Positions 2 through 48,651 of a stretch of DNA of 64,000 nt are shown piece by piece. The stretch's first letter is position 1, and each line of letters starts with the position of its first letter. The stretch comes from Alphaproteobacteria bacterium. GTDB taxonomy: Bacteria; Pseudomonadota; Alphaproteobacteria; UBA828. Location: assembly GCA_965220745.1 (NCBI GenBank), contig CBDCQT010000006.1, positions 32,001 to 96,000 of the forward strand, written 5' to 3'. The position numbers and the translations under genes were made by a program. Below the pieces are notes generated by a model. The model was not told the DNA's origin. It searched no databases and saw only the letters and a list, made by a program, of their open reading frames with translations.

Positions 2-1160
2 CTCGCCGGGCGGTCGGAGGATGCGGCGGAATCCGGGCGGGGCGAGTCTCGGCTGCGCGGGGATCGCAGCTATCTGATCACGGGAGGGCTCGGGGGGCTC
101 GGGCTGGAGGTGGCGCGCTGGCTGGCCGGGGCCGGCGCCGGGGCCATCGTGCTGAACGGTCGCCGCCCGCCCGACACGGAAGCCGAGGCGCTGATCGCGG
201 AGCTCCGGCAGGGCAGCGCCGAGGTGCGCGTCGAGATCGCCGACGTGACGGACGAGGAGGCTGTGGCGGGAATGCTCGCGCGGATCGACGCCGAGCTGCC
301 GCCGCTGGCGGGCGTGATCCACAGCGTGGGAGCGCTTGCAGACGGGGCATTGACGAACCAGGACTGGGAGCGCTTCGAGCGTGTGCTGGGGCCCAAGGCG
401 CTGGGGGCCTGGCGCCTGCACCGGGCGACGCTCGACCGGCAGCTCGACCTGTTCGTCCTCTTCTCCAGCCTGGCGGGCGTGGTCGGAAACCGCGGGCAGG
501 CCAACTACGCGGCGGCCAACGCCTTTTTAGACCAGCTGGCGCGGCACCGAAGGGCGCTGGGCCTGCCGGGCCAGGCCATTGCCTGGGGGACGTGGTCAGG
601 CATCGGCGAGGCCGAGGAGCAGCGCGAGCGCATCACGCCGCGACTGGCCGACTCGGCCGAGGAGTGGATGACTCCCGAGCAGGGCATCCGTGTCTTGGCA
701 CGGCTCGTGCGCGAGGATGTCGGGACCAGCGTGGCGGCGTTCGTCGACTGGTCGGCGCTTCCGTCGCGGGCGCCTTGGCTCGCAGATGTGGCAGGGCGCG
801 AGGAGCGCCGCGCCCTCGCCGCTCCGGACGATCTCCTGAAGCGGCTGGGGGGGCTCGCCCCCGGAGAGCGCCGCGAAGAACTGATCCGGCTCCTCGGGGA
901 ACAGCTGGTCGAGGTCCTGCGCCTGCGTTCCGCGCCGGCGCCCTCGGCCGGATTCTTCGAGCTGGGCATGGACTCGCTGATGGCGGTCGAGCTTCGCAAC
1001 CGCCTGAACCGGGCCTTCCGCGGCGCGTTCGTCGTCTCCAACACCGCGCTGTTCGACCATCCCGACATCGCCCGCCTGGCGGAACACCTCGCCGGCAAGC
1101 TAGCCGACGCTGTACCGGAGGCACCGAGGCTGAGAGCCTTTCCCGCCGTCCGCGGCCGCA
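2..1160 (+). other. PKS module 0 (partial): KR(Tyr)-ACP
   Basis: ITGGLGGLG; GQANYAAAN (Tyr codon 506-508); GMDSL at ~964. Confidence 0.93.
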
Positions 1161-4100
1161 GCGACGAACGCATCGCGATCGTGGGCATGGCCTGCCGCTT
1201 CCCCGGGGCGGAGGATGCCGAGGCGTTCTGGGCCCAGCTTCGCTCTGGCGCCGACCTAGTGACGAGGGGGCGTCCGGACGGGCTCTTCGTGGATGCCGAG
1301 ACGCAGGCGGCGCGGCCCTTCGGCGCCTATGTGGAAGGCCTCGACCGCTTTGACGCAGGCTTCTTCCGGATCGCCCCGGTAGAGGCGGAGCTGCTGGATC
1401 CCCAGCAGCGGATGCTGCTCGAGACCAGCTGGGCGGCGCTAGAGGACGCCGGCATCGCCCCGGACGGGCTGCGCGGCAGCCGGACCGGGGTGTACGGCGG
1501 GGTCGCGACGAGCGATTACCAAGAACTCACCGCTAGGAGTGTGGATGATCCGTCGACCAACCTCTACAGGGCCACCGGGGCCACGCCCTCGGCCGCGGTC
1601 GGCCGAGTAGCGTTCGCGCTCGGCCTAGAGGGTCCGGCCATCACGGTGGACACCGCGTGTTCCTCGTCGCTGGTGGCGCTGCACCAAGCGGCGGGGGCAC
1701 TCCGCGCAGGCGAGGTGGACCTTGCGCTGGCGGGAGGAGTGAACGCAATCCTTACGTCGACCGTTACCCAGATCTTTACCGACGCCGGCATGCTCGCCGC
1801 GGACGGACGCTGCAAGACCTTCGACTCGGCAGCCGACGGCTATGTACGAGGCGAGGGATGCGGGATGGTTGTGCTCAAGCGCCTTGCGGACGCGGAGGCA
1901 GCCGGAGACCGGATTCTCGCGCTTGTACGCGGATCGGCGGTGAACCAAGACGGCGCGAGCGCCGGCTTCACAGTTCCGAATGGTCCGGCCCAAGAGCGGG
2001 TGATCGAGGAGGCGCTTGCGCGGGCGGGCGTCGAGGCCTCCTCGGTGGACTACTTGGAGGCGCACGGCACGGGCACCGAACTGGGCGATCCGGTCGAAGT
2101 GGAGGCAGCGGCGGCGGTGTACGGCCGCGGCCGGAGCCCAGACCGCCCACTGCTGATGGGATCGGTGAAGACGAACGTGGGCCACCTAGAGGCGGCAGCG
2201 GGGGTAGCCGGGCTGATCAAGGCGGTGCTCGCGATCCGCTCCGGGGTGATTCCGCGCCACCTGCACTTCGCGCGGCCCAACCCGCGGACGGACTGGGAGA
2301 AGCTCCCCGTCCGGGTGACGTCGGAGGCGACCCCGTGGCCGGAGGCCGAGCGGCCGCGACGGGCCGCCGTCAGCTCCTTCGGATACTCGGGCACCAACGC
2401 CCATGTCGTGATCGAGGGCTACGCCGAGGATCGCGAACCTCCGCACTTTGAGATCCTCGCACCGCCGGAGTTGGGTCTGGATGACAGTGTCCCGCAGGCC
2501 GACGCTTCCCGCCAGCACCGCCTGCTCCCGATCTCGGCGAAGTCCTATGACGCCCTCCGGCAGCTGGCTGGCCAGTACCGGGCCGGACTCGCGGACGTTA
2601 CCTCGCTCGCCGACATGGCGTGGACGGCGAGCACGGGCCGGAGCCATTTCCGCTGCCGCTCTGCTCTCGTGTTTGGCGATCGCGCCTCGCTGCAGGAGCA
2701 GTTGGAAGGGTTGAGGCAAGGCGCAGGGGCGTCGCCAGCCGAAGGAAAGGTCGCCTTCCTCTACACCGGGCAGGGGAGCCAGTGGGCGGGCATGGGCCGG
2801 GAGCTCTATGAGGCCGAGCCGGTGTTCCGGGCAGTTCTGGACCGTTGCGAGGAAGTGTTCCGCGCAGAGCACGGCAAGGCGCTTCTCCCGGTGATCTTCG
2901 AGGGTTCCGAGCGGCTGGACCGGACCGAGTGGACGCAGCCAGCGCTCTACGCGCTGGAGAGCGGGCTGACCGCGCTGTGGGCCAGCGTGGGGGTGCGGCC
3001 CGACATCGTGTTCGGGCACAGCGTGGGAGAGATCGCGGCAGCGGCAGCGGCGGGAGCCCTCGATCTCGAAAGCGGGATGCGGTTCGCAACGCGCCGGGGC
3101 GCGCTGATGGGTTCGCTCTCGGCGGCAGGCGCGATGGCGGCGGTGTTCGCTTCGGCGGAGCGGGTCGCTGCCAGCCTTGACGGTACGGTCTGCCTGGCAG
3201 CCGATAACGGCACGCACCAGGTCGTGAGCGGGCCGGAGGCCGATATCGAGGCGCTCCTGCAGACATTCGAAGAGGACGGTCTGCGCGTGGAGCGCCTACG
3301 GACCAGCCAGGCCTTCCACAGCGCGCTGATGGATCCGGTGCTGGCGGAGCTGGAAGCGGCGGCTCCCAGGGCCTCGGCACCGTCGGTGCGACTGGTAAGC
3401 GACGTGAGCGGGCAGGTGCTGGAAGGGGCTCCCGACGGAGCGTATTGGCGGCGCCAGGCGCGCGAGCCGGTCCAGTTCGCGACAGCGCTGAGGACGCTGG
3501 CGGACCTGCAGGCGGGGCTGCTGCTGGAGATCGGGCCGCATGGCGTGCTGGGCCCGATGGCGGCGCTGGGCTGGCCGCGCAGCGAGGCACCCACGGTGAT
3601 CCCGAGCCAGCAGCGCGGCGGGAACGGGGACTTCGTCGGGGCGGTGGCGGGCGCGTACGAGGCGGGTCTGGAGATTGCCTTTGAGGGCCTGTTTGTCGGA
3701 GAGCGGCGGCGGCGGGTCTCGCTGCCGGCCTATCCCTTCCAGCGGGAGCGCTATTGGGTCTCTGCCTCTGCGCGACGCCGGTCAGATGAGGGGCACGTGC
3801 TGCTCGGCGTGCAGCGGGATTCCCCGGATGGCGAGCATTCCTTCGAGAGGCAGCTAGACAGTCGGGATCCGGCTTGGCTGGCCGACCACCGGGTGTTCGG
3901 CGAAGTCGTAGCGCCGGGTGCCCTCTACGCGGCGCAGGTGGTTGAAGCGCTCCGAGAGACACACCACGAACTTCCCGTCGTCCTTGAGGAGACCGCAATC
4001 ACGCGCCCGCTGGTGTTGTCGGGCGAGGAAGGCCGGCTGGTTCAAGTGGTGCTCGGCGAGGACAGCGCTTGGAAGGTCGTCAGCAAGGATGCGGGCGGGC

Positions 4101-7100
4101 AATGGGAGACACATGCCGCAGGCCGCTGGGCACCCCTCCCCACAACTGCATCCGACCGGGCAGATCTCCCTGAGCTGCAGGTCGGCCTTACCCAAGTGGA
4201 TGTGAAGGGCAAGTACCTCGAGCAAAAGCGGGATGGCACCGGTCTCGACTACGGGCCGGCCTTTCGCGGTCTGGCCCGGCTCTGGTCGGGCTCCGGCGAG
4301 GCACTGGGCGAGGTGCTGCTGCCGGCGGGAATGGAAAATCGGGTGCTGCTTGTCCATCCGGCACTGCTCGACGCCTGTTTCCAAGGGGTGGGTGGCATCG
4401 CCAAGCTGGCCGAAGCAGAGGGCACGTGGCTGCCGATCGGCTGGGACCGCTTCGTCTTGCACGGTGCGCTGCCGGATCGCGTCTTCTGCCGGGCACTCGA
4501 CCGCAGCGAGGGCGCGGGGACGCTCAGGGCCGATCTCTGGCTCTACACGGACACGGGCGAGGAACTGGCCCGCATCGAGGGCTTCGCGCTCAAACGCGTG
4601 AGCCAGAGCACCCTGCCGGGTGGGCGGGTCGAGGAGGCTCTCCACGAGGTGGTGTGGCGCGAAGGGGCGGCGGTGGGACTTTGGGAGGCAGACTTCCTCG
4701 CCGGGCCACGGGAGATCGAATCCGGCCTGGGAACGCTGGACGGATACCTTGAGGCGGAGGGCCGCGACGGGGCGTCGCTCGCAGCCCTGGGGCGGGAGCT
4801 GGAGCTTGAATCCCGTCGGGCGCTGCTGCGCGGATTCCGGGAGCTGGGGTGGGCGCCTAGCGCGGGGGACCGTTTCGAGACGGACCAGCTGCGCCGCCAG
4901 CTCAGGGTGACGGAGGATCACGGGCGGCTGTTCGGCCGCTTGCTGTCGGTACTGGAGGAGATGGGGCTCCTCGCCCGGGAGCCGGCTGGCGGCTGGCATG
5001 TTGCAACCGTGCCGGAAGCACCCCCAGAGCCCGAGGCGGCGCCGACCGACTCCGCAGCCGATTCCATCGAGCTGGGCCTGCTCCGCCGCTGCGGGGAGTC
5101 GCTCGCCGACGTGCTCCGCGGCCGCGCTGATGCGCTGGACCTGCTCTTCGGCGGAGAACCGGGAGCGGCGAGCCTGTACCGCGAGTCGGCCTCCGTGCGG
5201 GCGGTGAACCGCATGGCCGCCGACGGCTTGCGCGCGGCGGTCGCCGGGCTGCCCGAAGGCCGGCCGCTACGGGTGATCGAGGTCGGCGCGGGGACGGGCG
5301 CTACCACCGCCGCCCTCTTGGACGTCCTACCAACCGACCGGACCGAATACACCTTCACCGACATCTCGACCGGCTTCTTCGCGGACGCAAAGCGGGAATT
5401 CGGCGAGCGGGGCGCGGGCCTCCGATTGCGGGCGCTCGACATCGAACAGGATCCGGCGGATCAGGGGTTCGCTCCCCACGGCTACGACCTCGTGATCGCC
5501 GCGAACGTCTTGCACGCGACCCGAGACCTAGGTGAGACGCTCGCTCACTGCCGGCGCCTCCTGGCCCCGTCGGGCGTGCTGTTGGCCGTCGAGGAAACCA
5601 CTCGCAAGGAGTGGCTGGACCTAACCTTCGGACTGCTGCCCGGCTGGTGGCGCTTCCAAGACGCGTATCGCTCCGACTACACGCTGGTCGGGCCGCCCGT
5701 CTGGGAGCAGGCACTCGCGGACGCGGGATTTGCGGAAACGGCCCTGATCGAGGATCCAGCAGGAGCACTCCTGATCTTGGCGCGGGGGCCGTCGGAGGTG
5801 GAGACCGAAGGCGGGCTGTTCGTGCTGGCCGGAGAAGGCAAGCTGGGCACCGAGCTGGCGGCGGAGCTAGATCGCCGGGGCAGCCGAGCGATCCAGGGAC
5901 CTGCAGAGGCCGGCCGCAAGGCATGGCGCGGGTTCTTCGAGTCATTGCCCGGTGTACTTCCGCTGCGGGGAGTCGTTTATTTGGGCGGGGTGCGACGAGA
6001 CGGGCAGGGGCTGTCCGCGAGCGAGCTGCAGGCAGATCTGGAGGCGGCGGATGCGGGCGCGCTGGCGCTAGTCCAAGGGATGTCGGACGCTGGCGTGTCG
6101 CCGGTCAGCGGCACTTGGTTCGTGACCCGGGGCGGCCAAGTGATCGAGCGGGAGCGCTGCGGCGCACTCGTGGGGGCCTCGTTGTGGGGCTTCGCGAGCG
6201 TGGTGGACCTAGAGCACGGGGATCTGATGCCGCGCCTGCTGGACTTGGATCCCGAATCTCCTCCATCTGCTGGCACGGTTGCCGACGAAGTGCTCTTCCC
6301 TGACCGCGAAACACGCATCGCCCGCCGGGGCGGGCACCGCTTGGTGGCCCGGCTGACACGCCTCGCCGGGCGGGCGGGGGATTCGGCGGATCCCGGCCCG
6401 GGCGAGGCCCGGCTGCGCGGGGACCGCAGCTATCTGATCACGGGAGGGCTCGGGGGGCTCGGGCTGGAGGTGGCGCGCTGGCTCGCCGGGGCGGGAGCCG
6501 GGGCCATCGTGCTGAACGGACGCCGACCACCCGATGCGGAAGCCGAGGCGCTGATCGTCGAGCTCCGGGGGGGCAGCGCCGCGGTGCGCGTCGAGATCGC
6601 CGACGTGACCGACGGGGAGGCGCTGGCGGGTATGCTCGCACGGATCGACGCCGAGCTGCCGCCGCTGGCAGGCGTGATCCACAGCGTGGGCGCGCTCGCC
6701 GACGCGGCCTTGACGAACCAAGACTGGGAGCGCTTCGAGCAGGTGCTCGGGCCCAAGGCGCTGGGGGCCTGGCGGCTGCACCGGGCGACGCTCGACCGGC
6801 AGCTCGACCTGTTCGTTCTCTTCTCTAGCGTGGCGGGCGTTGTCGGGAGTCCGGGCCAGGCCAACCACGCGGCGGCCAACGCCTTCCTAGACCAGCTGGC
6901 GCGGCACCGGAGGGCGCTGGGCCTGCCGGGTCAGGCCATTGCATGGGGAGCGTGGTCGGGCATTGGCGAGGCCGAGGAGCAGCGCGAGCGCATCGCGTCA
7001 CGGCTCGCCAGATCGGGCGAGCGGTGGATGTCTCCCGAGCAGGGCATCGGTGCCTTGGCGCGGCTCGTGCGCGAGGACGTCGGAACCAGCGTGGCGGCGT

Positions 7101-10100
7101 TCGTCGACTGGTCGGCGCTCCCGGTCAGCGCACCTTGGCTGGCAGAGGTGCTGGAACGAGAGGAGGATCGCGCCATCGCCGATACAGAAGACTGGCAGCC
7201 GGGTCGGGCCGACGGCGAACTCTTGGGACACCTCCGCGGACTCGCCCATGGGAAGCGCCGGGAAGAACTGGTCCGGTTCCTCGGCGGACAGCTGGTCCAG
7301 ATCCTGCGCCTGCGCTCCGCGCCGCCGTCCGCGGCTGGATTCTTCGAGCTGGGCATGGACTCGCTGATGGCGGTCGAGCTTCGCAACCGCCTGAACCGGG
7401 CCTTCCGCGGTGCATTTGTCGTCTCCAACACCGCGGTCTTCGACCATCCCGATATCGCCCGCCTGGCGGAGCACCTTGCCGGCAAGATCGTTGGCGTGGC
7501 CCCAGAGGTGCCGCAGGTGCCAGGTTTGCCCGCTGTCCGGCGCTGGGACGACGACCGCATCGCGATCGTCGGCATGGCCTGCCGCTTCCCCGGAGCCGAG
7601 GATGCCGAGGCGTTCTGGGCGCAGCTTCGCTCCGGGGCCTATCTGGTGACGAGGGGGCGTCCGGACGGGCTCTTCGTGGATGCCGAGACAGAAGCGGCGC
7701 GCCCCTTCGGTGCGTATGTGGAAGGCCTCGACCGCTTCGACGCCGGCTTTTTCCGGATTGCCCCGGTCGAGGCCGAACTCCTCGACCCCCAGCAGCGGAT
7801 GCTGCTCGAGACAAGCTGGGCGGCCCTCGAGAACGCCGGGATCGCCCCGGACGAACTGCGCGGCAGCCGGTCCGGGGTGTACGGCGGGATATCGATGAAC
7901 GATTACCAGACGCTGGTCGCCAATCTGGGCGACGATCCGTCGAACGATATCTACAGGTCTACCGGCATCGCCGCCTCGACGGCGATCGGCCGGATCGCAT
8001 TCACGCTTGGCCTCGAGGGTCCAGCCATCAGCGTCGACACCGCATGTTCCTCGTCGCTGGTCGCGCTGCATCAAGCGGCAGCCGCGCTGCGCGCAGGCGA
8101 GGCGGATCTGGCGCTGGCAGGAGGCGTGAACGCGATCTTGACCTCAACCGCCACACGGATCTTCACCGACGCAGGCATGCTCGCCGCCGATGGACGCTGC
8201 AAGACCTTTGACGCGGCAGCAGACGGATTCGTACGGGGCGAGGGATGCGGGATGGTTGTGCTCAAGCGCCTTGCGGACGCGGAGGCGGCAGGGGACCGGA
8301 TCCTCGCGGTTGTGATCGGATCGGCCGTGAACCAAGACGGCGCCAGCGCCGGCCTGACCGTGCCGAACGGCCCGGCCCAAGAGCGCGTGATCGAAGAGGC
8401 GCTCGCACGGGCGGGCGTCGAGGCCTCGTCGGTCGACTACTTGGAGGCGCACGGCACGGGCACCGAGCTGGGCGATCCGGTCGAGGTGGAGGCGGCGGCT
8501 GCGGTGTACGGCCGCGGCCGGAGCGCGGACCGCCCGCTGCTGATCGGGTCGGTGAAGACGAACGTAGGCCACCTCGAGGCGGCGGCGGGCGTGGCCGGGC
8601 TGATCAAGGCGGTGCTCGCGATCCGTTCCGGGGTGATTCCGCGCCACCTGCACTTCGAACGTCCGAACCCGCGGATGGACTGGGAGCAGCTCCCCGTCCG
8701 GGTGACATTGGAGGCGACGCCTTGGCCGGAGGCGGAGCGGCCGCGGCGGGCCGCCGTCAGTTCCTTCGGGATCTCGGGCACCAACGCTCACGTCGTGATT
8801 GAGGGATACGCGGAGGAGCGCGAGCCGCCGCGCATCGAGCTGCCCGCACTGCCGGAGGCGGGTGCGGATGACCGCGTCCCGCAGGCCAACGCGCCCCGCC
8901 TGCACCGCTTGCTCCCGCTGTCGGCGAAGACCGAGGACGCGCTCCGACAGCTAGCCAGCCGGTACCGGGCCACGCTTTCGGACGACACACCGCTCGCTGA
9001 CATCGCATGGACGGCGAGCGCGGGCCGGAGCCATTTCCGCTTTCGCTCCGGTCTCGTGTTCAGCGATCGCGCCTCGCTGCAGGAGCAGTTGGAGGTAATA
9101 AGCCAAGGAGTCGTGGCGTCGCCGACGACAGGAACGGTCGCGTTCCTTTACACCGGGCAGGGGAGCCAGTGGGCGGGCATGGGCCGGGAGCTCTATGAGG
9201 CCGAGCCGGTCTTCCGGGCGGTCTTGGACCGGTGCGAGGAAGCGTTCCGCGCAGAGCGCGGCCGGGCGCTTCTCCCGGTGATCTTCGACGATGCCGGGCG
9301 GCTGGACCGGACCGAGTGGACCCAGCCGGCGCTGTACGCGCTGGAGAGCGGGCTGACCGCGCTGTGGGCAAGCGTGGGGGTGCGGCCCGACATCGTGTTC
9401 GGGCACAGCGTGGGAGAGATCGCGGCCGCCGCGGCCGCCGGCGCCTTTGATCTCGAGACCGGGATGCGGTTCGCCACGCGCCGGGGCGCGCTGATGGGTT
9501 CGCTCTCGGTGGCAGGCGCGATGGCGGCGGTGTTCGCTTCGGCGGAGCGGGTCGCTGCCAGCCTTGACGGTGCGGTGTGTCTGGCGGCCGATAACGGCAC
9601 GCACCAGGTCGTGAGCGGGCCGGCGGCCGATATCGAAACGCTGCTGAAGAGGTTCGAAGAGGACGGTCTGCGCGTGGAGCGCCTGCGGACCAGCCAGGCC
9701 TTCCACAGCGCGCTGATGGATCCGGTGCTGGCGGAGCTGGAAGCGGCGGCGCCCGCGGCCTCGGCACCGTCGGTGCGACTGGTGAGCGATGTGAGCGGGC
9801 AGGTGCTGGAAGGGGCTCCCGAGGGAGCGTACTGGCGGCGCCAGGCGCGCGAGCCGGTCCAGTTCGCGACGGCGCTGCGGACGCTGGCAGAGTTGCAGGC
9901 GGGGCTGCTGCTGGAAATCGGGCCGCATGGCGTGCTGGGCCCGATGGCGGCGCTGGGCTGGCCGCACGGGGAGGCGCCCACGGTGATCCCGAGCCAGCGG
10001 CGCGGGGGGAACGGGGACTTCGTCGAGGCGGTGGCGGGCGCGTACGAGGCGGGTCTGGAGATTGACTTCGAGGGCCTGTTTGCCGGAGAGCGGCGGCGGC

Positions 10101-37100: not shown

Positions 37101-40100
37101 TCGCCGCGCTGCCGGAAGGCCGGTCGCTGCGGGTGATCGAGGTCGGTGCAGGGACGGGCGCGACCACCTCCGCCGTCCTAGACATCCTGCCGTCCGACCG
37201 AACCGAATACACCTTCACGGACATCTCGACCGGCTTCTTCCCGGACGCGGAGCGGAAGTTCGGCGAGCGGGGCGTGGACCTTCGCCTCCTAGCGCTTGAC
37301 ATCGAACGGGATCCGGCGGATCAGGGGTTCGCGCACCACGGCTACGACCTCGTAATTGCCGCGAACGTCCTGCACGCGACCCGCGACTTAGCTGAAACGC
37401 TCACCCACTGTCGGCGGCTCTTGGCCCCGTCGGGCGTACTGGTGGCCGTCGAGGAAACCGTCCGGAAGCAATGGCTGGACCTGACCTTCGGACTGCTGCC
37501 CGGCTGGTGGCGCTTCCGGGACGAGTATCGCTCCGACTACGCACTGGTCCCAGCCCCTGTCTGGCACCAAGCCCTCGCCGACACCGGATTCGTCGGGATG
37601 TCTCACGTCGAGCTTCCGTCAGGGGCGCTCCTGCTCTTGGCGCGGGGGCCGTCGGAGGTGCAGGCTAGACCGGGTCGTTTTGTGCTGGCTGGAGCGGGAG
37701 CATTCCCCGAAGCACTCGAGAGAGAACTCCGCGAGCGGGGACAGGATGTGGTGCCGGGCCCGGCGGATGGGCGACGGACGTCATGGCGATCGTTCTTCAG
37801 GACGCTGGACGGCGAGGTGCCGCTGTGGGGCGTGGTGCATTTGGAAGGCATGCGGCGAGATGCGGCGAAGCTTTCGACCGCAGATCTGGCAGGGGACGCG
37901 GAGGAGATCGGGGCGAGCGCTCTGGCGCTGGTCCAAGGCATGTCGGACGCCGGCGCGGCACCCGTGAACGGCACTTGGTTCGTGACCCGAGGTGGTCAGG
38001 TGATCGACCGGGAGCGCTCCGGCGCCCTCCCCGGAGCCATGCTCTGGGGCTTCGCGAGCGTGGTGGACTTGGAGCATGGGGATCTGACCCCCCGCCTGCT
38101 GGACCTGGACCCCGAGGCCCCCCCGTCCGCCAGCGCGCTGGCCGACGAGTTGCTCTTCCCGGACCGGGAGACGCGCGTCGCCCGACGGGGCGGAGCCCGA
38201 CTGGTCGCTCGGCTCACGCGCGTCGCCCGACGGGGCGAACTCCCGGAGGACAATGCGTGGCGCTGGGCGGCCGATCCGGATGGAGTACTCGACGCGGTGC
38301 GAATGGAGGATGCCTCGGAGGAGCCTGGTCCAGGCGAGGTTCGGGTGCGGCTCGAGGCGGCCGGGGTGAACTTCCACGACGTAATGGTGGGGATGCAGGT
38401 CGTGGACGCCGATCAGCGGCTTGGCAGCGAGTTGTGTGGCCGGGTGGTGGAGGCAGGTGAAGGTGTGCGCGAATTCCAAGCAGGGGACCGGGTGGTGGGA
38501 TTCGCCGGCGGAGCGTTCGGGCCCGAGGTGATCACCCGCGCCGAACACGTGGTGCCGTCACCGCCAAGGCATTCGGCGGCGGAGTTGGCAACCATCCCGG
38601 TGGCATTCGTGACCGCAGCACTTGCCTTCGAGCATTCGGGTCTCGGAACGGGCGCACGGATTCTGATCCATGCGGGAACGGGAGGCGTGGGTCACGCGGC
38701 GATCCGGCTGGCACGAGCTGCGGGACTCGAGGTGTACGCGACTGCCAGCGCACCGAAGCAGGAGTACCTGCGCTCGCTCGGTGTGCAGGCGGTGTTCGAC
38801 AGCCGCTCCACCGCCTTCGGCAAGCAGATCTTGGAAGCGACCGGAGGAGCCGGAGTGGCGATGGTGCTGAACAGCCTCTCCGGGGAGGGTTTCATTGAGG
38901 CCAGCCTGTCGTGTCTCGCGCCAGGCGGATGCTTCGTCGAACTCGGGAAGCGCAACATCCGCAGCGCAGGCGAGATGGCGGCCGACCGCCCGGACGTCCG
39001 TTACCTCGTCGTGGCGCTGGACCGGCTCCTGCGGGAGGAACCGGAGCGGCTCGGGACAGTTCTGAAGGGCGTGATGGAGCGCGTCGCGTCGGGGGAGATC
39101 GAACCGCTGCCAGTCACCCGCTGGCCGCTCGCGGAGGCGGGCAGCGCGCTCACCGAGTTGCAGGCGGCTCGCCATATCGGGAAGGTCGTGCTCGTGCCCT
39201 CGGCGCTGGCTGCGGGCCGGCTGCGCGGGGACCGGAGCTATCTGATCACGGGGGGGCTCGGAGGGCTCGGGCTGGAGGTGGCGCGCTGGCTTGCCGCAGC
39301 CGGAGCGGGGAGCATTGTCCTGAACGGACGCCGTCCGCCGGACACGGCAGCCGCAGGTGCCGTTGCGAAGCTGCGTGAGGGCGGTGCCGAGGTGCGCGTG
39401 GAGATCGCCGACGTGACGGACGAGGAGGCGGTGGCGGAGATGCTCGCGCGGATCGACGCCGAGCTGCCGCCGCTGGCGGGCGTGATCCACAGCGTGGGAG
39501 CGCTCGCCGACGCGGCCTTGACGAACCAAGACTGGGAGCGCTTCGAACGCGTGCTCGGGCCCAAAGCACTGGGGGCTTGGCGACTGCACCGCGCGACGCT
39601 CGACCGGGAGCTCGATCTGTTCGTCCTCTTCTCCAGCCTGGCGGGCGTGGTCGGGAGCCCGGGCCAAGCCAATCACGCGGCAGCCAACGCCTTCCTCGAC
39701 CAGCTGGCGCGGCACCGAAGGGCGCTGGGCCTGCCGGGTCAGGCCGTTGCGTGGGGACCGTGGTCGGGCATCGGCGAGGCCGAGGAGCAGCGCGAACGGA
39801 TCGCGGCGGGGCTCCCCCTCCACGGCGAGGAGTGGATCGCTCCCGAGCAGGGCATCCTCGCTTTGGCACGGCTCGTGCGCGAGGACGTCGGAACCAGTGT
39901 GGTGGCGTCCGTCGATTGGCCCACGCTCTCGGCGCGAGCACCTTGGCTCGCAGAAGTGCAGGGATCCTCGGAGATCCGCTCCTCCGGAGATCCGGAGGAC
40001 CTGATACGCCAGCTCCGGGGACTCGCGCCCGGGGAACGCCGGGAAGAACTGATCCGGTTCCTGCAAGAACAACTGGTCCAGATCCTGCGCCTGCGCTCGG

Positions 40101-43100
40101 CCCCGTCGCCCTCGGCGGGATTCTTCGAGCTGGGCATGGACTCGCTGATGGCGGTCGAGCTTCGCAACCGCCTGAACCGGGCCTTCCGCGGCGCGTTCGT
40201 CGTCTCCAACACCGCGGTCTTCGATCATCCCGACATCGCCCGTCTGGCCGAACACCTTGCAGGCAAGCTTCCCGGTGCGTCACCGGAGCCAGCGCGGGTG
40301 CGGGCCTTGCCCGCCGTCCGCCACCAACACGACAAACGTATCGCGATCATCGGCATGGCCTGCCGCTTCCCCGGGGCACCGGATGCCGAGGCGTTCTGGA
40401 AGCAGCTTCGCGCCGGAGCTGATTTGGTGACGAGGGGGCGTCCAGACGGGCTTTTCGTGGATGCCGAGACAGAAGCGGCCCGCCACTTCGGCGCGTATGT
40501 GGAGGGTCTCGACCGCTTCGACGCGGGGTTTTTCCGGATCGCCCCGGTCGAGGTGGAACTGCTAGACCCCCAGCAGCGGATGCTGCTCGAGACAAGCTGG
40601 ACGGCACTTGAGGACGCCGGGATCGCGCCGGACGGTCTGCGCGGCAGCCGAACGGGGGTCTACGGCGGGATCTCGACAAACGATTTTCACGCGCTCGTCA
40701 GCCAGACGGTTGGTGATCCGTCGACGATCCTCTACAGGTCCACCGGTGTCTCCTTCTCGACCGCGATCGGCCGGATCGCCTTCGCGCTCGGCCTCGAGGG
40801 TCCTGCCATCACGGTGGACACCGCGTGCTCGTCGTCGCTGGTCGCGCTGCATCAGGCGGCGGCGGCGCTCCGCGCAGGCGAGGCGGATCTCGCGCTGGCA
40901 GGCGGAGTGAACGCGATCCTGACGTCGAGCGCCACCAGGATCTTCACTGAGGCCGGCATGCTCGCCGCGGATGGACGTTGCAAGACCTTCGACGCGGCGG
41001 CCGACGGCTTTGTGCGCGGCGAGGGATGCGGCATGGTTGTGCTGAAGCGCCTTGCAGACGCGGAGGCGGCGGGAGACCGGATCCTCGCGGTTGTGCTCGG
41101 ATCGGCTGTGAACCAAGACGGCGCGAGTGCCGGCCTGACCGTGCCGAACGGCCCGGCCCAGGAGCGGGTGATCGAGGAGGCGCTTGTGCGGGCGGGCATC
41201 GAGGCCTCCTCGGTGGACTATCTGGAGGCGCACGGCACGGGCACCGAACTGGGCGATCCGATCGAGGTGGAGGCGGCGGCTGCCGTGTACGGCCGCGACC
41301 GGGATCTGAACCGCCCCCTGCTGATCGGGTCCGTGAAGACGAACGTGGGCCACTTGGAGGCTGCGTCCGGCGTGGCCGGGCTGATCAAGACGGTGCTCGC
41401 GATCCGCTCTGGCCTGATTCCGCGACACCTACACTTCGAGCGGCCCAACCCCCAGATGGACTGGGAGCAACTTCCTGTCCGGGTGACGTCGGAACCGACC
41501 CCCTGGCCGGAGGCCGAGCGGCTGCGGCGGGCCGCCGTCAGCTCCTTCGGGTACTCGGGCACCAACGCCCATGTCGTGATCGAGGGATACGCCGAAGAGC
41601 GCGAGCCGCCCCGCATCGAGCTGCCCGCGCTGCCGGAGTCGGGTGCAGATGACCGCGTCCCGCAGGCCGACGCGCCCCGCCAGCATCGGCTGCTCCCGCT
41701 CTCGGCGAAGTCCGAGGGCGCGCTTCGTCAGCTGGCCGGCCGCTATCGAGCCGCCCTCTCGGAAGACATGCCGCTCGCCGACATGGCCTGGACAGCGGGG
41801 GTGGGGCGGAGCCATTTCCGCTACCGCTCCGGCCTCGTATTCCAAGACCGGGCCTCGCTGGCAGAGCAGCTGGAAGTGGTGAGCCAGGGGGCCGCGGCGT
41901 CGCCCAGCGCGGGAAGGGTCGCCTTCCTTTACACCGGCCAGGGCAGCCAGTGGGCGGGCATGGGCCGGGAGCTTTATGCGACCGAGCCGGTCTTCCGAGC
42001 GGTTCTAGACCGGTGCGAAGAGGTCTTCCGAGCAGAGCGCGGCAGATCTCTTCTCACCGTGATCTTCGAGGATTCCGAGCGGCTGGAGCGGACCGAATGG
42101 ACGCAGCCGGCACTCTACGCGCTGGAGAGCGGGCTTACGGCTTTGTGGGCCAGCGTCGGGGTGCAGCCCGATGTCGTGTTCGGGCACAGCGTGGGAGAGA
42201 TCGCGGCGGCCGCGGCCGCCGGTGCCTTTGACCTCGAGACCGGGATGCGGTTCGCCACGCGCCGGAGCGCGCTGATGGGTTCGCTTCCCGATGGAGGTGC
42301 GATGGCGGCGGTGTTCGCCACGCGCGACCGCGTCACAGCCGCGCTGGAAGGTGCGGTGTCGCTGGCAGCGGACAACGGCGCGCACCAAGTCGTGAGCGGG
42401 CCGGCGGCCGACATCGAGGCGCTCCTGAAGCGCTTCGAAAAGGACGGTCTGCGAGTGGAGCGACTGCGGACCAGCCACGCCTTCCACAGCGCGCTGATGG
42501 AGCCAGTGCTGGCGGATCTGGAAGCGGCGACCCCCAAGGCCTCGGCCCCATCGGTGCGGTTGGTGAGCGATGTGAGCGGGCGCGTGCTGGAAGGCGCACC
42601 CGACGGAGCGTACTGGCGGCGTCAGGCGCGCGAGCCGGTCGCCTTCGCCGCCTCGACCGCAACGCTGGCGGAACTCGGAGCCCGGATCTTGGTTGAGATC
42701 GGCCCCGACGCCGTGCTTGGGCCGATGGCGGCGATGACGTGGCCCGAGGGCGAATCCCCAACGGTGGTGCGGAGCCTGCGACGGGATGGCAGCGGGGACT
42801 TCACTGCCGCGGCGGGCGCGATGTTTGAGGCCGGAGTCGACCTTTCCTTCGAGGGACTGTTCGCCGGAGAACGCCGCCGCCGAGTGGCACTCCCAACCTA
42901 TCCCTTCCAGCGCAGGCGCTACTGGTTGACAACGCCGTCCCGCCGCCGGATCGACGACGGTCATCCGCTGTTGGGTGTGCGCCGGGATTCGCGAAGCGGC
43001 GAGGTCTCCTTCGAGACCCAGATGTCCGCCGGGAACCCCGCCTGGCTGGCGGACTACGTAGTCGTGGGCGAAGTGATCGCGCCGGCAGCCCTGTTCGCTG

Positions 43101-46100
43101 GGCAGGTGATCGAAGCACTCGGAGAGACCGGGAATGACTCGGCGGTCTTCCTGGAACAGGTTCAGATCCATCATCCCCTGGTGCTGGAGCCGGGCGACGG
43201 GCGCGGCGTCCAGGTCTTCATCGGGCCGGACGGCCGCTGGGAAGTGGCCAGCCGGGAACCTCGAGGCGGGACTTGGCAGCTTCACGCTGACGGGAGCCTA
43301 GGGAGGAGCACGGTTGAAGAGGACCGCCTAGACCTCCAGACCGTGGAGCGGCGGCTATCCGCCTCGAGCGCGGCCGACTTCCGCAACGGGATGGCACAGC
43401 AGGGCATCGTCCTGGGACCGGCCTTCGGGGGACTCTCCGCCTTCGCGGCGGACGACAAGAGCGCTTGGGGCCGGGTTACGCGCCCCGCGCAACTGGCCGG
43501 AGACCGCCTGCGGGCCCATCCGGCGCAGCTGGACGCCTGTTTTCAGGTCGTGGCGGGACTCTTGGCCGGGCGGGTCGGCAACCGCCACTATCTCCCAATC
43601 GGGTGGAGCCGCCTCTGGCTCGCCGCACCGCTGCCCGAGCAGATCTTCTGCTACGCAAGGCTCGAAGAGGTCGGGGAGGAGACGGCCACGGCGGATCTCG
43701 CCCTTTACACTCCCGATGGCGTGCGCTGCGGTCACGTGGCCGGCTTCGCGCTCAAGCGCGCCACCCGGGCAGCGATGCTGGGCGGTCGGGTGGATCACCT
43801 GCTGCACAGCGTCGTTTGGCGGCGAAGCCCCAGCCTCCCAGGCCCCCGGGAAGCGTCGACCGCGGCCGATCCAGATGCGCCCGCGACGGGTGCGCGCCCG
43901 ATGGTGCCGGCGGAGGCAGAACCGCACCGCGGCGTGTTCGTCGTGTCCGGAAACGGGGCCGTCACGGAGGAGCTCGTGCGCGAGCTTGCGGACCGGCGGC
44001 AGACCGTCGTACCCGGCCCCTCCGAAAGCGGGAATCGGCAGGCTTGGCGCGCACTCTTCGAGGCGCTTCCATCTTCAGCTCCGCTCCGCGGCGTGGCTTA
44101 CCTCGCGGGGCTCAGGGGCGACGGACAGTACCTCGGAACCGAGGAACTCCGGCAGGAGCTTGAGGCCGCCGCGTCTGGAGCTCTGGCCTTGGCGCAGGGG
44201 ATGTGGGACGCAGGAGCGCGGGCGGTGAACGGGGTCACGTTGGCAACCCGTGGAGGCCAGGTCCTAGGGGGAGAGCGCACCGGCTCCCTAGCGGGTGCCG
44301 CGCTCTGGGGCCTGGGCGGTGTGGTCGGAGTCGAGAATGCGGACCTTCGTCCTCGCTTAGTGGACTTCGATCCGGACGCGTCGATCCCGGCCGCGATCCT
44401 GGCAGACGAACTGATGTTCCCGGACCGGGAGAACCGGATTGCGTGGCGAAACGGGGTGCGCCAAGTGGCCCGTCTGGTTCGGACCGACGGACCGGGAGAC
44501 AAGGCCCAGAGTGCCCGCGGGGCGCCCCAGCCGCCGGCAAGTCGCCTGAGGCCGGACCGGAGTTACCTCGTGACTGGAGGTCACGGGGGCATCGGCCTGC
44601 AAGTGGCTGGCTGGCTGGCGGATGCAGGAGTCGGCGAGATCGTTCTAAACGGACGGCGGGAGCCGACGCGGCGGGCCCGAACGGTGATAGGGGAGTTGCG
44701 TCGGCGCGGCGTGACGGTCCGTGTGGAGGTCGCAGACCTCACCGACACGAATGCGGTTGACGCCATGCTCGCACGGGTTGACGCCGAGATGCCCCCGCTC
44801 GGCGGCATTTTCCACTGCGCGGGCGTGCTCGCCGAGGCGGCGCTCAGCGACCAAGACTGGGCACGTTTTGAGACCGCGCTAGGTCCGAAGGCTCTGTCAG
44901 CGTGGCATCTTCACCGAGCGACGCTGGATCGCGAACTTGAGCTCTTCGTGCTCTTCTCGAGCCTCTCCGGGGTGGTCGGCAGCCTCGGCCTAGCGAATTA
45001 CGCCGCGGCGAACGCGTTCCTGGACCAGCTGGCGAATCATCGCCGTGCCCTTGGGCTTGCAGGACAGGCGATCGCTTGGGGTCGTTGGTCTGAGGTCGGC
45101 ATGGCGGAGAAGCAGCGCGGCCAGAGCGAAGCGCGGCTGAACGCACTCGGAGGCAGCTGGATCGCGCCCGAACAGGGTCTCCGGATCCTCGACCGCGTGG
45201 TTCGGGACGACTTGGGGGCACGGGTCGTCGCCGACATGGGCCGATCGACGCTGCCCCGCCTTCCGCTTTTTCCGCTGCTTGACGAGATCCGTGCGTCTGA
45301 ACGGTCCCTAGTGGACACTGTGCCTGCAAAGTCTGCCGCCGCCCTCGGGCGCCTTGAGAAAGCGGCACCCGCGCAACGCGAGAAGCTCGTGGCCGATTTT
45401 CTGGGGAATGAGGTGCGGTCCCTGCTGGGACTTGATGCGCCGCCGGACCATGACGTTGCCTTCTCGGAACTCGGCATGGACTCTCTGATGGCCGTAAATC
45501 TCCGCCAACGCCTGAATGCGGCGCTGCCGCGCGAAGTGGTCTCGCCCACCGCCCTTTTCGAGCATCCCGATGTCGGCCGACTGACGGGCCACCTGATCTC
45601 CGAACTCTTCCCGGCCGGTGATTCACCGTCACCGACCCCGACCGTCTCGGAGCGACCGGATTCCGCGCATGTGTCGAGTTCCCTCCCGCGCACGCCAGGC
45701 TTAGCCCTTGCGCACGAAGGTGGTGACCGAGTCGCGAGCCCCCCACGTGCGTCGAGACCCAATATCGACGACGACCGCGTTGCAGTCGTAGGCATGGCCT
45801 GCCGACTTCCCGGCGGCACCGACCTCGCGGAATTCTGGCGCACGCTCCGCGAGGGCCGGAGCGCCGTGACCGACGGTCGGCCCGAGAAGCTCGGCGGCAC
45901 CGGCGACACCCGTCACGCTGGAGCCTACGTTCCGGAGATCGACACGCTGGACGCCGAATTCTTCGGTGTCGCTGCCGCCGAAGCCCGCTGCATGGACCCG
46001 CAGCAGCGGATGCTGCTCGAGGTTAGCTGGACGGCTCTGGAACATGCGGGGATCGATCCGCGCTCGCTGAAGGGCAGCCGCAGCGGCGTTTTTGCGGGAG

Positions 46101-48169: not shown

Positions 48170-48651
48170 GCGGAGTGCCTGCACAAGAAAGACCCCGGGG
48201 ATTCGAGCGCTTCGCACGCGCCAACCCGCCTCCGTCACCATCCGCGGGGACGCCATCGAGATCCGGCTCGGCTACCGAGTTCACGATTTCCTCCTCCGCG
48301 CCGACGGGTTCGACCGCAAGCAGTCCCGCACCCCGGCTCGGAACCCGCAAGCTCCGTTTGGTCGTCCGATACCACGCCCGCTGGCAGTCTCCGTCAGCCA
48401 CCTCCGCGCCCCGGACTCCGCCTGTCGACTCCACCCGCTCCCTGGCGCTAGAATGTCACTTCACGAACTCACCGTGGGTGTTCAGGCTGGACTCCAGCGT
48501 CTCCATTCGGAACGCGTGGACGCCCTGCCGGCGGCTCGCGCTGCTTGCATGTCAGGCAGCTGTGCGGCACACTGCCCGTCGAGCGCAGGGTGGGACCAAC
48601 GACCAGCGGTCGCCCCGCTGCACCCACCGAGATCCGGGGACGAGCCCAACG

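What the first reader, a model, noticed from the sequence alone, without database searches (positions are those of the whole stretch)
506..45001. KR catalytic residue toggles Tyr/His in lock-step with the cMT state of the same module
Seen: the KR motif is ANHAAAN in modules 1, 2, 5 and 6 (6866, 13253, 32375, 39674) and ANYAAAN in modules 0, 3, 4 and 7 (506, 19667, 26018, 44999). Every His-KR module has a cMT with canonical TDIS(T/P)GFF. The Tyr-KR modules have either the altered TDISTDSF cMT (3, 4) or no cMT (7), so all 7 complete modules fit. Known: this Tyr is the SDR general acid, and cMT and KR compete for the beta-ketoacyl intermediate in fungal HR-PKSs. Inference: the His-KR is an attenuated or methyl-selective reductase that lets methylation happen first, a one-nucleotide (TAC/CAC) programming switch. 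Module 6 keeps intact-looking DH and ER with a His-KR, which argues the His-KR is not dead.
Basis: partly seen in the sequence, partly recalled or inferred. Interest (0 to 1): 0.9.

Follow-up and report, generated by a model that had tools for sequence, protein, structure and literature searches.

The report
Histidine ketoreductases paired with active C-methyltransferases
In a giant bacterial polyketide synthase, modules whose methyl-adding domain looks active carry histidine instead of the usual catalytic tyrosine in the neighbouring ketoreductase. The pairing recurs in related genes and in the well-studied yersiniabactin enzyme, so these reductases probably work and are wrongly read as dead.

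Summary
The sequence observation is correct. All eight KR codons (TAC/CAC) and all six cMT motifs lie where stated, and 7 of 7 complete modules in the window fit. "Lock-step" is overstated. The gene continues upstream on the contig (at least 26,722 aa). There, module 0 has a canonical TDISTGFF cMT with a Tyr-KR, and a further module has SAFF+ER+Tyr.

Across five orthologous or paralogous giant genes, 50 of 56 cMT-bearing modules fit the rule. The association holds in a test on phylogenetically independent pairs (about 13 same way, 0.2 opposite, 4.8 unchanged of 18; median p 2e-4).

His-KRs are not dead:
- They keep Lys, Ser, Asn and the NADPH motif.
- They evolve under the same constraint as Tyr-KRs.
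- They sit beside an ER and an intact DH in 88 SupA-like modules.
- The same His is present in intact E. coli HMWP1, the yersiniabactin cMT-KR module.

The DS-type cMTs replace a Phe that is kept in 5 of 5 solved cMTs.

That the His-KR works by kinetic or methyl-selective gating remains an inference. No paper in the searchable library links KR His to cMT.

The parts
2..48169 (+). 3' 16,055 codons of a giant cis-AT type I PKS gene. The 5' end lies outside the window; the contig frame is at least 26,722 aa. Modules in the window: M0 (KR-ACP only), M1-M5 KS-AT-DH-cMT-KR-ACP, M6 with ER, M7 KS-AT-DH-KR-ACP, M8 KS plus a degenerate AT.
506..508 (+). M0 KR catalytic position, TAC (Tyr). Its cMT lies upstream of the window and reads TDISTGFF, so this module is an exception.
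6866..6868 (+). M1 KR catalytic position, CAC (His)
13253..13255 (+). M2 KR catalytic position, CAC (His)
19667..19669 (+). M3 KR catalytic position, TAC (Tyr)
26018..26020 (+). M4 KR catalytic position, TAC (Tyr)
32375..32377 (+). M5 KR catalytic position, CAC (His)
39674..39676 (+). M6 KR catalytic position, CAC (His), in a module with DH His and ER
44999..45001 (+). M7 KR catalytic position, TAC (Tyr); the module has no cMT
5357..5380 (+). M1 cMT loop after strand beta-2, TDISTGFF (Phe kept)
11744..11767 (+). M2 cMT loop, TDISTGFF
18134..18157 (+). M3 cMT loop, TDISTDSF (Gly to Asp, conserved Phe to Ser)
24509..24532 (+). M4 cMT loop, TDISTDSF
30866..30889 (+). M5 cMT loop, TDISPGFF
37217..37240 (+). 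M6 cMT loop, TDISTGFF
38669..38692 (+). M6 ER nucleotide-binding motif, HAGTGGVG
43055..43057 (+). M7 DH: the catalytic His position reads Tyr (WLADY). M1-M6 read WLADH at 3875, 10262, 16658, 23033, 29390 and 35744.
47621..47635 (+). Terminal AT-like domain with GKGAG in place of GHSxG (no active-site Ser). The gene ends at 48169 with no ACP after it.
48175..49674 (+). Alpha/beta-hydrolase gene directly after the PKS; a possible release enzyme

Best explanation
The window holds the 3' two thirds of a giant collinear cis-AT polyketide synthase whose near-identical modules are programmed by point changes.

There are two main module states:
(a) Methylating. The cMT keeps the conserved Phe of the loop after the SAM-ribose-binding Asp (TDISx[G/A]FF). 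The KR carries His in place of the SDR catalytic Tyr.
(b) Non-methylating. The cMT carries Asp-Ser in that loop and is probably unable to act. The KR carries Tyr.

Shown:
- The His-type KR is the usual partner of an intact cMT in this family, in SupA-like single-module synthases and in HMWP1 of yersiniabactin synthetase.
- It is under purifying selection.
- It co-occurs with intact DH and ER.
- A change of cMT state on the tree is usually accompanied by the matching KR change.

Inferred: the His-KR is a working reductase. Its weaker or differently placed general acid makes it slow on, or selective against, the unmethylated beta-ketoacyl-ACP, so the cMT acts first. In HMWP1 the cMT must act twice before reduction. 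When methylation is not wanted, Tyr restores fast reduction, and the cMT is then bypassed or disabled.

The coupling is a strong tendency, not an obligate lock.
For: - Motifs and codons in the window.
- His at the catalytic Tyr column of solved KRs.
- In five giant genes, 50 of 56 cMT-bearing modules fit, and all 4 cMT-less modules have Tyr.
- Non-giant set of about 447 KRs from 258 proteins: no cMT gives Tyr 181 and His 9; xF cMT gives His 156 and Tyr 27; D-type cMT gives Tyr 8 and His 0.
- Other cMT lesions (catalytic His to Tyr or Glu, degenerate motifs) also pair with Tyr.
- Independent-pairs test on a KR tree with the focal residue masked (250 KRs): 18 pairs; KR changes the same way in about 13, the other way in 0.2, not at all in 4.8; median p 2.4e-4.
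- The same test on non-giant KRs below 80% identity (389 KRs): 17 pairs; 9.1 same way, 0.2 other way, 7.7 unchanged; median p 0.004.
- One sister pair with near-identical cMT DNA differs in both sites: G003a_m09 is TDSF/Tyr, G003b_m09 is PAFF/His (support 99).
- KR competence: Lys, Ser, Asn and TGGLGGxG are kept in all His-KRs of the giants. dN/dS is 0.12-0.23 for His-KRs and 0.14-0.38 for Tyr-KRs. The DH catalytic His is kept in 88 of 88 detected DHs of non-giant His-KR+cMT+ER modules.
- Intact HMWP1 (3,163 aa) of E. coli Nissle 1917 reads ...GQSAHALAC... at this column, with a cMT reading FTDISALFT.
- The same stretch is present in 2,266 of 5,426 complete E. coli genomes.
- The DS lesion removes a Phe that is kept in 5 of 5 solved cMT sequences aligned (CurJ, PsoF, DisA, 7dmb, LovB). 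That Phe is kept in 188 of 197 His-paired cMTs.
- cMT/KR competition as a programming mechanism in fungal HR-PKS: PMC6839510 (abstract and passages).
Against: - Six of 56 giant-gene modules break the rule. Four have an intact-looking cMT with Tyr, among them M0 of this gene. Two have a DS cMT with His.
- In the wider set, 24-27 intact-looking cMTs sit with Tyr-KRs, and 9-12 His-KRs have no or a defective cMT.
- For KRs below 60% identity the independent-pairs test has no power and shows nothing (8 pairs, 1.9 same way, 5.9 unchanged, p 0.5). At long range the association is between clades.
- DS-type cMTs are not clearly under relaxed selection: dN/dS is 0.21-0.33, against 0.20-0.28 for xF types. 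So 'dead cMT' rests only on the lost Phe and on extra changes at conserved columns.
- Those conserved columns were chosen on the His-paired set, which biases the comparison.
- Gene conversion among modules means that tree 'events' may be retained states rather than new mutations.
- No rate, selectivity or product data exist for any of these KRs.
- That the HMWP1 KR reduces only after double methylation is recalled, not read here.
Confidence: 0.6

Rival explanations
1. The coupling is real, but it is steric or substrate fit rather than kinetic gating. The shorter His side chain accommodates or positions a C2-methylated or gem-dimethylated beta-keto substrate made by a cMT, or avoids KR-catalysed enolisation or epimerisation of it. 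Tyr suits the unbranched substrate. The order of events is set elsewhere.
For: The covariation evidence is the same as for the main explanation. HMWP1, whose substrate is gem-dimethylated, has His. The two DS+His modules both also have a dead DH (Cys or Tyr at the catalytic His). That is what one would expect if a His-KR cannot process an unmethylated substrate and the module stops at the ketone.
Against: KRs of methylmalonyl-using modules reduce 2-methyl substrates with Tyr (recalled; for example the EryKR1 and MAS hits have Tyr). Intact cMT with Tyr-KR modules exist. No structural model was made here.
Confidence: 0.2
2. There is no functional coupling. Two ancestral cassette types (xF-cMT with His-KR, DS-cMT with Tyr-KR) were multiplied by module duplication and carried along together. 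The association would then be hitch-hiking of two sites 1.5 kb apart.
For: The modules are 79-86% identical paralogues with a mosaic history. The H/Y pattern along the assembly line is largely collinear between genomes. In KRs below 60% identity the association is by clade only.
Against: KR and cMT trees with the focal sites masked do not separate the two types. DS versus xF needs at least 4 changes on well-supported branches and 7 by parsimony. The M4 (Tyr) KR is 95-96% identical to the M5 (His) KR. Independent pairs go the same way about 13 to 0.2. Unrelated cMT lesions and cMT absence also go with Tyr. The M0 KR region is 98% identical in DNA to a His module yet keeps TAC.
Confidence: 0.1
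3. His-KRs are reductase-dead (C-type) domains. Methylating modules would then deliver 2-methyl-3-keto units, and the DH and ER behind them would be idle relics.
For: The catalytic Tyr is missing, which by the usual motif rules means inactive. DH catalytic His is replaced (Cys/Phe/Tyr) in 8 of 33 His-KR modules of the giants, against 1 of 19 DS/Tyr modules.
Against: The NADPH motif, Lys, Ser and Asn are all kept. Purifying selection equals that on Tyr-KRs. 88 non-giant His-KR modules with ER keep the DH His. G000 M6 has DH His plus ER, whereas its orthologue without ER has DH Cys; this is coherent programming behind a His-KR. HMWP1 has His and its product carries the reduced hydroxyl (the chemistry is recalled). 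A review passage says the KR Tyr is 'sometimes replaced by histidine' (PMC7327777, passage read).
Confidence: 0.05

Closest known systems
PKS module of HMWP1 (Irp1), yersiniabactin synthetase (KS-AT-cMT-KR-ACP)
   Same: It is a cis-AT module with a cMT directly before the KR. The cMT keeps the loop Phe (FTDISALFT). The KR has His at the catalytic Tyr column and keeps Lys, Ser and a Gly-rich NADPH motif. The product is both C-methylated and reduced (C-14 bismethylation: PMC9396620, passage read; the hydroxyl is recalled).
   Different: It is a single module in an NRPS-PKS hybrid with no DH (no DH hit). It makes a gem-dimethyl group. The Asn of YAAAN is Cys. Identity to the query KR is low (71 bits against the KR profile).
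SupA-like single-module synthases (KS-AT-DH-cMT-ER-KR-ACP, about 3,400 aa)
   Same: Closest relatives of the module type, at 45-65% identity over cMT-KR. 97 of the KRs parsed have xF cMT + ER + His. One copy lies in the same genome at C5:214272-224651.
   Different: They are single, fully reducing modules. The window gene is a collinear synthase of 13 or more modules, with mostly no ER and with state toggles. The name SupA and its proposed product (methyl-branched fatty acids) come from the literature (PMC4245539, passages read), not from a test here.
CurJ-type cis-AT modules with embedded cMT (curacin)
   Same: Best solved relative of the cMT (5thy, E 1.6e-62). The cMT is likewise placed between the DH and the KR.
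   Different: The CurJ loop reads TDIGALFT. The KR residue of CurJ itself was not seen here: only the cMT is in the PDB hit and the paper was not held.
cMT versus KR kinetic competition in fungal highly reducing iterative PKSs (TENS/DMBS, LovB)
   Same: It is the same chemical logic: both domains act on one beta-ketoacyl-ACP, and their relative rates set the methylation pattern (PMC6839510, abstract and passages). The LovB cMT loop is exactly TDISTGFF.
   Different: In fungi the outcome varies from cycle to cycle within one iterative enzyme. No Tyr/His toggle is described there. Here the state would be hard-wired in each module by one codon.
C-type (reductase-incompetent) KRs of modular PKSs
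   Same: The canonical catalytic Tyr is absent.
   Different: C-type KRs are described as lacking the active-site Asn, or Ser and Tyr (PMC7327777, passage). Here Asn, Ser, Lys and the NADPH motif are all kept, and the context argues for activity.

Membership tests
Type I modular cis-AT polyketide synthase | Repeated KS (active-site Cys), in-line AT (GHSxG) and ACP (DSL Ser) in one polypeptide | tested here: met
   8 KS DTACSS, 7 AT GHSVG and 8 ACP GMDSL motifs in the window frame. Pfam ketoacyl-synt, Acyl_transf_1 and PP-binding all match.
PKS ketoreductase (complex SDR) with the canonical active site | Catalytic Tyr in the YxxxN motif, together with Lys and Ser | tested here: not met
   Modules 1, 2, 5 and 6 read HAAAN. 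Lys, Ser and Asn are present. Modules 0, 3, 4 and 7 meet the feature.
PKS ketoreductase (complex SDR) with the canonical active site | Gly-rich NADPH-binding motif and Pfam KR domain | tested here: met
   TGGLGGLG in all; PF08659 E 4e-60 to 9e-59.
B-type KR | LxD (LDD) motif about 57 residues before the catalytic position | tested here: met
   LAD (LAE in M7) at the expected column in all KRs of the gene. The motif definition comes from bioRxiv 10.1101/2021.06.30.450545 (passage read).
C-type (inactive) KR | Loss of the active-site Asn, or of Ser plus Tyr, and no reduction in the product | tested here: inconclusive
   Only Tyr is replaced; Asn and Ser are kept. The product is unknown. Context (ER/DH, HMWP1) argues against membership.
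PKS C-methyltransferase (class I SAM MT, CurJ/LovB type) | GxGxG motif I, acidic residue at the end of beta-2 (TD), conserved Phe in the following loop, and catalytic His (NVLHAT) | tested here: met
   Met in M1, M2, M5, M6 and upstream M0. PDB best hit CurJ cMT at E 1.6e-62.
PKS C-methyltransferase (class I SAM MT, CurJ/LovB type) | The same features in modules 3 and 4 | tested here: not met
   The loop Phe is Ser and the preceding Gly is Asp (TDISTDSF). GxGxG and the His are kept.
SupA-like synthase | A single module KS-AT-DH-cMT-ER-KR-ACP in a protein of about 3,400 aa | tested here: not met
   The window gene has at least 13 modules, and ER in only 1 of 8 window modules. The C5 gene of the same genome does meet it.

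The most novel reading that the evidence does not exclude
The KR codon is the primary methylation switch. A Tyr-KR outruns the cMT, so a module skips methylation even when its cMT is intact, as in M0. The cMT-KR region of M0 has been overwritten by a His-type paralogue but keeps TAC. On this reading the Asp-Ser and other cMT lesions are secondary. A single T/C transition would then rewrite the methyl-branch pattern of a polyketide. 'His at the KR Tyr position' would be a general sequence predictor that a bacterial cis-AT cMT is used, from HMWP1 to these giants.
Probability: 0.25. Interest if true: 0.8.

Novelty: new variant of a known kind. Interest (0 to 1): 0.65.

Why it matters
Motif-based annotation treats a KR without the catalytic Tyr as inactive (this is recalled practice of PKS annotation tools). 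Here that rule would mispredict four window modules and most SupA-like synthases as non-reducing.

A KR subtype defined by one residue and tied to cMT use would help in two ways:
- It would improve structure prediction from sequence for cMT-containing bacterial PKSs.
- It would give engineers a one-codon handle on methyl branching.

It also makes the long-discussed cMT/KR competition model testable in a hard-wired modular system. Natural near-isogenic His and Tyr modules are available side by side in one gene.

Tried and rejected
- Dead-KR reading: rejected for the reasons given under rivals.
- Relaxed selection on DS-type cMTs: looked for and not found. dN/dS is 0.21-0.33 against 0.20-0.28. 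So the claim that they are inactive rests on the lost Phe and on scattered extra changes at conserved columns. That comparison is biased, because the columns were chosen on the His-paired set.
- First, stricter regex for the DH motif: it missed many DHs. It was replaced by a profile built from the giants' DHs.
- Xenorhabdus megaplasmid hit H22: fetched in the hope that it was the cMT-less HMWP1 homologue PxbG. It is an unrelated stand-alone PKS and was dropped.
- Plasmid tblastn: 337 records, only 7 covering 80% or more of cMT-KR, and none with a named product. Not followed further.
- Literature: searches found no paper linking a KR His to cMT. The only relevant text is one clause in PMC7327777 ('tyrosine (sometimes replaced by histidine)'), which cites Keatinge-Clay 2012. 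That review is not held, so I cannot say what it states.
- The CurJ cMT paper (PMC5224524) and the gephyronic acid paper (PMC4948183) are not held. Supplements were not consulted.
- No structure prediction, complex prediction, read mapping or RNA search was run.
- The KR residues of CurJ, LovB and other characterised cMT modules were not seen.


Full report
**What is in the window.**
One frame is open from window base 2 to 48169 (16,055 codons, no start inside the window). G+C is about 70% across it and about 65% downstream. Pfam and motif scans give this architecture:
- M0: KR-ACP only.
- M1-M5: five KS-AT-DH-cMT-KR-ACP modules.
- M6: one module with an added ER.
- M7: one KS-AT-DH-KR-ACP module.
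- M8: a last KS followed by an AT-like domain with GKGAG instead of GHSxG, and no ACP.

An alpha/beta-hydrolase gene follows at 48175-49674. The window is G000:C6:32001-96000. On the contig the same frame is open from base 1 to 80169, giving 26,722 aa, 13 KS, 12 KR and 11 cMT, and it is still cut at the contig start.

**The observation.**
The focal codons are TAC or CAC. In a phmmer alignment to solved KRs, the His of M1 aligns with the catalytic Tyr of mycocerosic acid synthase (GQGAYAAAN).

Among the eight KRs of the window, the Y/H column is the only motif column that separates the two classes. One other variable column also does so. Among the eleven cMTs of the contig gene, only the Gly/Asp(Ala) column separates the classes. 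GAGTG, AANVLHAT and the rest are kept. So both toggles are point changes in otherwise conserved domains.

**Where 'lock-step' fails.**
The cMT of M0 lies just upstream of the window and reads TDISTGFF, yet its KR is Tyr. The first complete module on the contig reads TDISSAFF + ER + Tyr. Within this gene, 9 of 11 cMT-bearing modules fit the rule.

From the cMT focal window onward, the cMT-KR DNA of M0 is closest to His-type paralogues. It is 95-98% identical to M5 over the KR region. Its positional orthologue in G001 is about 90% identical. M0 still keeps TAC. That orthologue reads RDSF/Tyr. So the cMT of M0 was probably overwritten by gene conversion while the KR Tyr was retained.

**Relatives.**
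- A back-translated pattern scan found 50 loci in MAG records titled Bryobacterales, Acidobacteriota, Terriglobia, Rhodothermales, Binatia, Latescibacterota and Rhodospirillales.
- Whole-genome searches showed giant frames of 29,674 aa (G001), 27,735 and 27,729 aa (two in G003), and a broken set of frames in G002.
- Two protein searches added 258 proteins.

I built KR, cMT and DH profiles from the window gene's own domains and read the residue at the focal profile columns in every hit.

**Counts in the five giant genes (61 KRs).**

| cMT loop | KR His | KR Tyr |
|---|---|---|
| [G/A]F | 31 | 4 |
| D[S/L] | 2 | 19 |
| no cMT | 0 | 4 |
| cut by a frame end | 0 | 1 |

Every KR keeps Lys and Ser, TGGLGGxG (or a near variant) and LxD (LAE in M7). 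All keep the Asn of YAAAN except two G001 His-KRs, which read ANHAAAD. Every cMT keeps the motif I glycines (GxGxG, written E/G-x-G-x-G-x-G in the scan) and the His of NVLHAT. The H/Y order along the assembly line is the same in G000 and G001 for 11 of 12 positions. The last eight modules of G003b follow the same order.

**Counts outside the giants.**

| cMT state | KR His | KR Tyr | other |
|---|---|---|---|
| no cMT | 9 | 181 | 4 |
| xF | 156 (97 with ER) | 27 | 6 |
| D-type | 0 | 8 | 0 |

- Several Tyr-paired cMTs with an intact loop have other lesions. The catalytic His is Tyr in P0015, P0023 and P0024, and Glu in P0003 and P0032. Others have degenerate motifs.
- His-KRs with an intact cMT extend down to 40-57% KR identity, in ordinary multi-module synthases with LDD motifs.
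- A second synthase in the same genome (C5:214272-224651; KS-AT-DH-cMT(TDISAGFF)-ER-KR-ACP) also has His.

**Phylogenetic control.**
I built a FastTree of 250 KRs at 50% or more identity, with the focal residue masked. On it, 18 pairs on supported branches differ in cMT state. The KR residue differs in the same direction in about 13 of them, in the opposite direction in 0.2, and not at all in 4.8 (median sign-test p 2.4e-4).

For non-giant KRs below 80% identity (389 KRs) there are 17 pairs: 9.1 same way, 0.2 opposite, 7.7 unchanged (p 0.004). For KRs below 60% identity (240 KRs) there are only 8 pairs, with 1.9 going the same way (p 0.5). At long range the association is therefore one of clades.

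On a cMT DNA tree with the four loop codons masked, DS and xF types are intermixed within both the Bryobacterales and the Rhodothermales groups. This needs 7 changes by parsimony and at least 4 on starred branches. One sister pair differs in both sites: G003a_m09 is TDSF/Tyr (+ER) and G003b_m09 is PAFF/His. Another differs in the cMT only: G003a_m10 is TDSF/His and G003b_m10 is PAFF/His.

Because modules exchange tracts, these 'events' may be states held by selection against homogenisation rather than fresh mutations. Either way they argue for selection on the combination.

**Is the His-KR alive?**
1. All other catalytic and cofactor motifs are kept.
2. Between orthologous modules of G000 and G001 (dS 0.2-0.5), KR dN/dS is 0.12-0.23 in six His modules and 0.14-0.38 in five Tyr modules. 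DH dN/dS is 0.23-0.38 against 0.25-0.35.
3. In non-giant modules with His-KR, intact cMT and ER, the DH catalytic His is present in 88 of 88 DHs detected; 10 modules gave no DH hit.
4. G000 M6 has DH His + ER + His-KR. Its orthologue G001_m11 has no ER and has Cys at the DH His. This is coherent programming downstream of a His-KR.
5. The annotated, intact irp1 product of E. coli Nissle 1917 (HMWP1, 3,163 aa) has cMT FTDISALFT and a KR reading ...YSSAAATLGAPGQSAHALAC.... The His is at the Tyr column, and Lys, Ser and TGAFGGLG are kept.
6. The CFT073 copy, annotated as frameshifted, shows the same His when read frame by frame. The stretch occurs in 2,266 of 5,426 complete E. coli genomes.

Yersiniabactin is bismethylated at C-14 by this cMT (PMC9396620, passage read). 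That the adjacent hydroxyl comes from this KR, and that methylation must come first, I state from recall (Walsh laboratory work), not from a paper read here. A review says in passing that the KR Tyr is 'sometimes replaced by histidine' (PMC7327777).

**Is the DS-type cMT dead?**
The Phe replaced by Ser is kept in all five solved cMT sequences aligned: CurJ ALFT, PsoF PGFF, DisA HAFT, 7dmb PLFF and LovB TGFF. It is kept in 188 of 197 His-paired cMTs. Asp at the preceding position occurs in 27 of 75 Tyr-paired cMTs and is not among the seven commonest residues at that column in the His-paired cMTs. The only His-paired DS loops are the two giant-gene exceptions.

Tyr-paired cMTs more often deviate at columns that are invariant in the His-paired set. 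Examples are the Asn and His of NVLHAT. Those columns were picked on the His-paired set, so the contrast is inflated.

Against decay, dN/dS of DS-type cMTs (0.21-0.33) is hardly above that of xF types (0.20-0.28). I read them as probably catalytically silent but structurally required. This is an inference.

**A third toggle.**
The DH catalytic His is Phe in G000_m04 and Tyr in M7. It is Cys in G001_m11, G003a_m02, G003a_m10, G003b_m03 and G003b_m10. Both DS+His exceptions have a dead DH. These modules would then leave either a ketone or a hydroxyl.

**Mechanism.**
- Shown: the covariation, and the likely competence of the His-KR.
- Inferred: the His-KR is slow on or selective against the unmethylated intermediate, so the cMT acts first. 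Tyr restores fast reduction where no methyl is wanted.
- The analogy is the competition between C-MeT and KR that explains methylation programming in fungal iterative synthases (PMC6839510).
- HMWP1, where two methyl transfers precede reduction, fits this reading.
- A steric-fit reading cannot be separated from it with these data.

**Comparison and novelty.**
The gene is an ordinary type I cis-AT PKS by every feature tested. It is not a SupA-type single-module enzyme, although its modules are related to them. The His-KRs fail the canonical Tyr criterion and do not fit the described C-type either.

Six full-text searches found no statement that links a KR His to cMT presence or activity. Key subscription papers were not held, so prior notice cannot be excluded. 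I rate it a new variant of a known kind: a KR subtype tied to cMT use, with natural near-isogenic on/off modules in one gene.

Noticed in passing
window 43055-43057; contig modules upstream of the window; G001/G003 loci L051-L065: The DH catalytic His is also toggled by point changes. It is Tyr in M7, Phe in one upstream G000 module, and Cys in five modules of the orthologous giants. The G000 M6 / G001_m11 pair differs in ER presence together with DH His/Cys.
   Followed up: partly
window 46244-48169: The gene ends with a KS (Cys present) and an AT-like domain whose active-site Ser motif reads GKGAG. No ACP follows. The SupA-like gene on contig C5 ends with a similar AT-like domain reading GQGAG. 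This may be a non-loading docking or release module.
   Followed up: no
window 48175-49674: A 499-aa alpha/beta-hydrolase gene starts 6 bases after the PKS stop codon. It is a candidate chain-release enzyme.
   Followed up: no
window 53965-55446: ORF with reverse transcriptase (RVT_1, E 6e-38) and a weak group II intron maturase domain. It is probably a group II intron or retron-type RT downstream of the cluster.
   Followed up: no
window 57478-62739: A 1,753-aa ORF fuses DEAD/Helicase_C and UvrD-type helicase domains. An MscS-type channel gene lies at 55480-56895.
   Followed up: no
G003 (L056-L065): A MAG titled Rhodothermales carries two paralogous giant genes (27,735 and 27,729 aa), about 75% identical to the Bryobacterales gene. 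They differ from each other in module state at a few positions. This suggests transfer between phyla and recent reprogramming.
   Followed up: partly
G001 (L051), first two KRs of the 29,674-aa frame: These two ER-containing modules read ANHAAAD: the Asn of the YAAAN motif is Asp. The orthologous G000 module reads ANYAAAN.
   Followed up: no
P0053, P0073: Two SupA-like proteins of about 3,350-3,400 aa have no methyltransferase domain yet keep a His-KR with ER. They are exceptions in the opposite direction.
   Followed up: no
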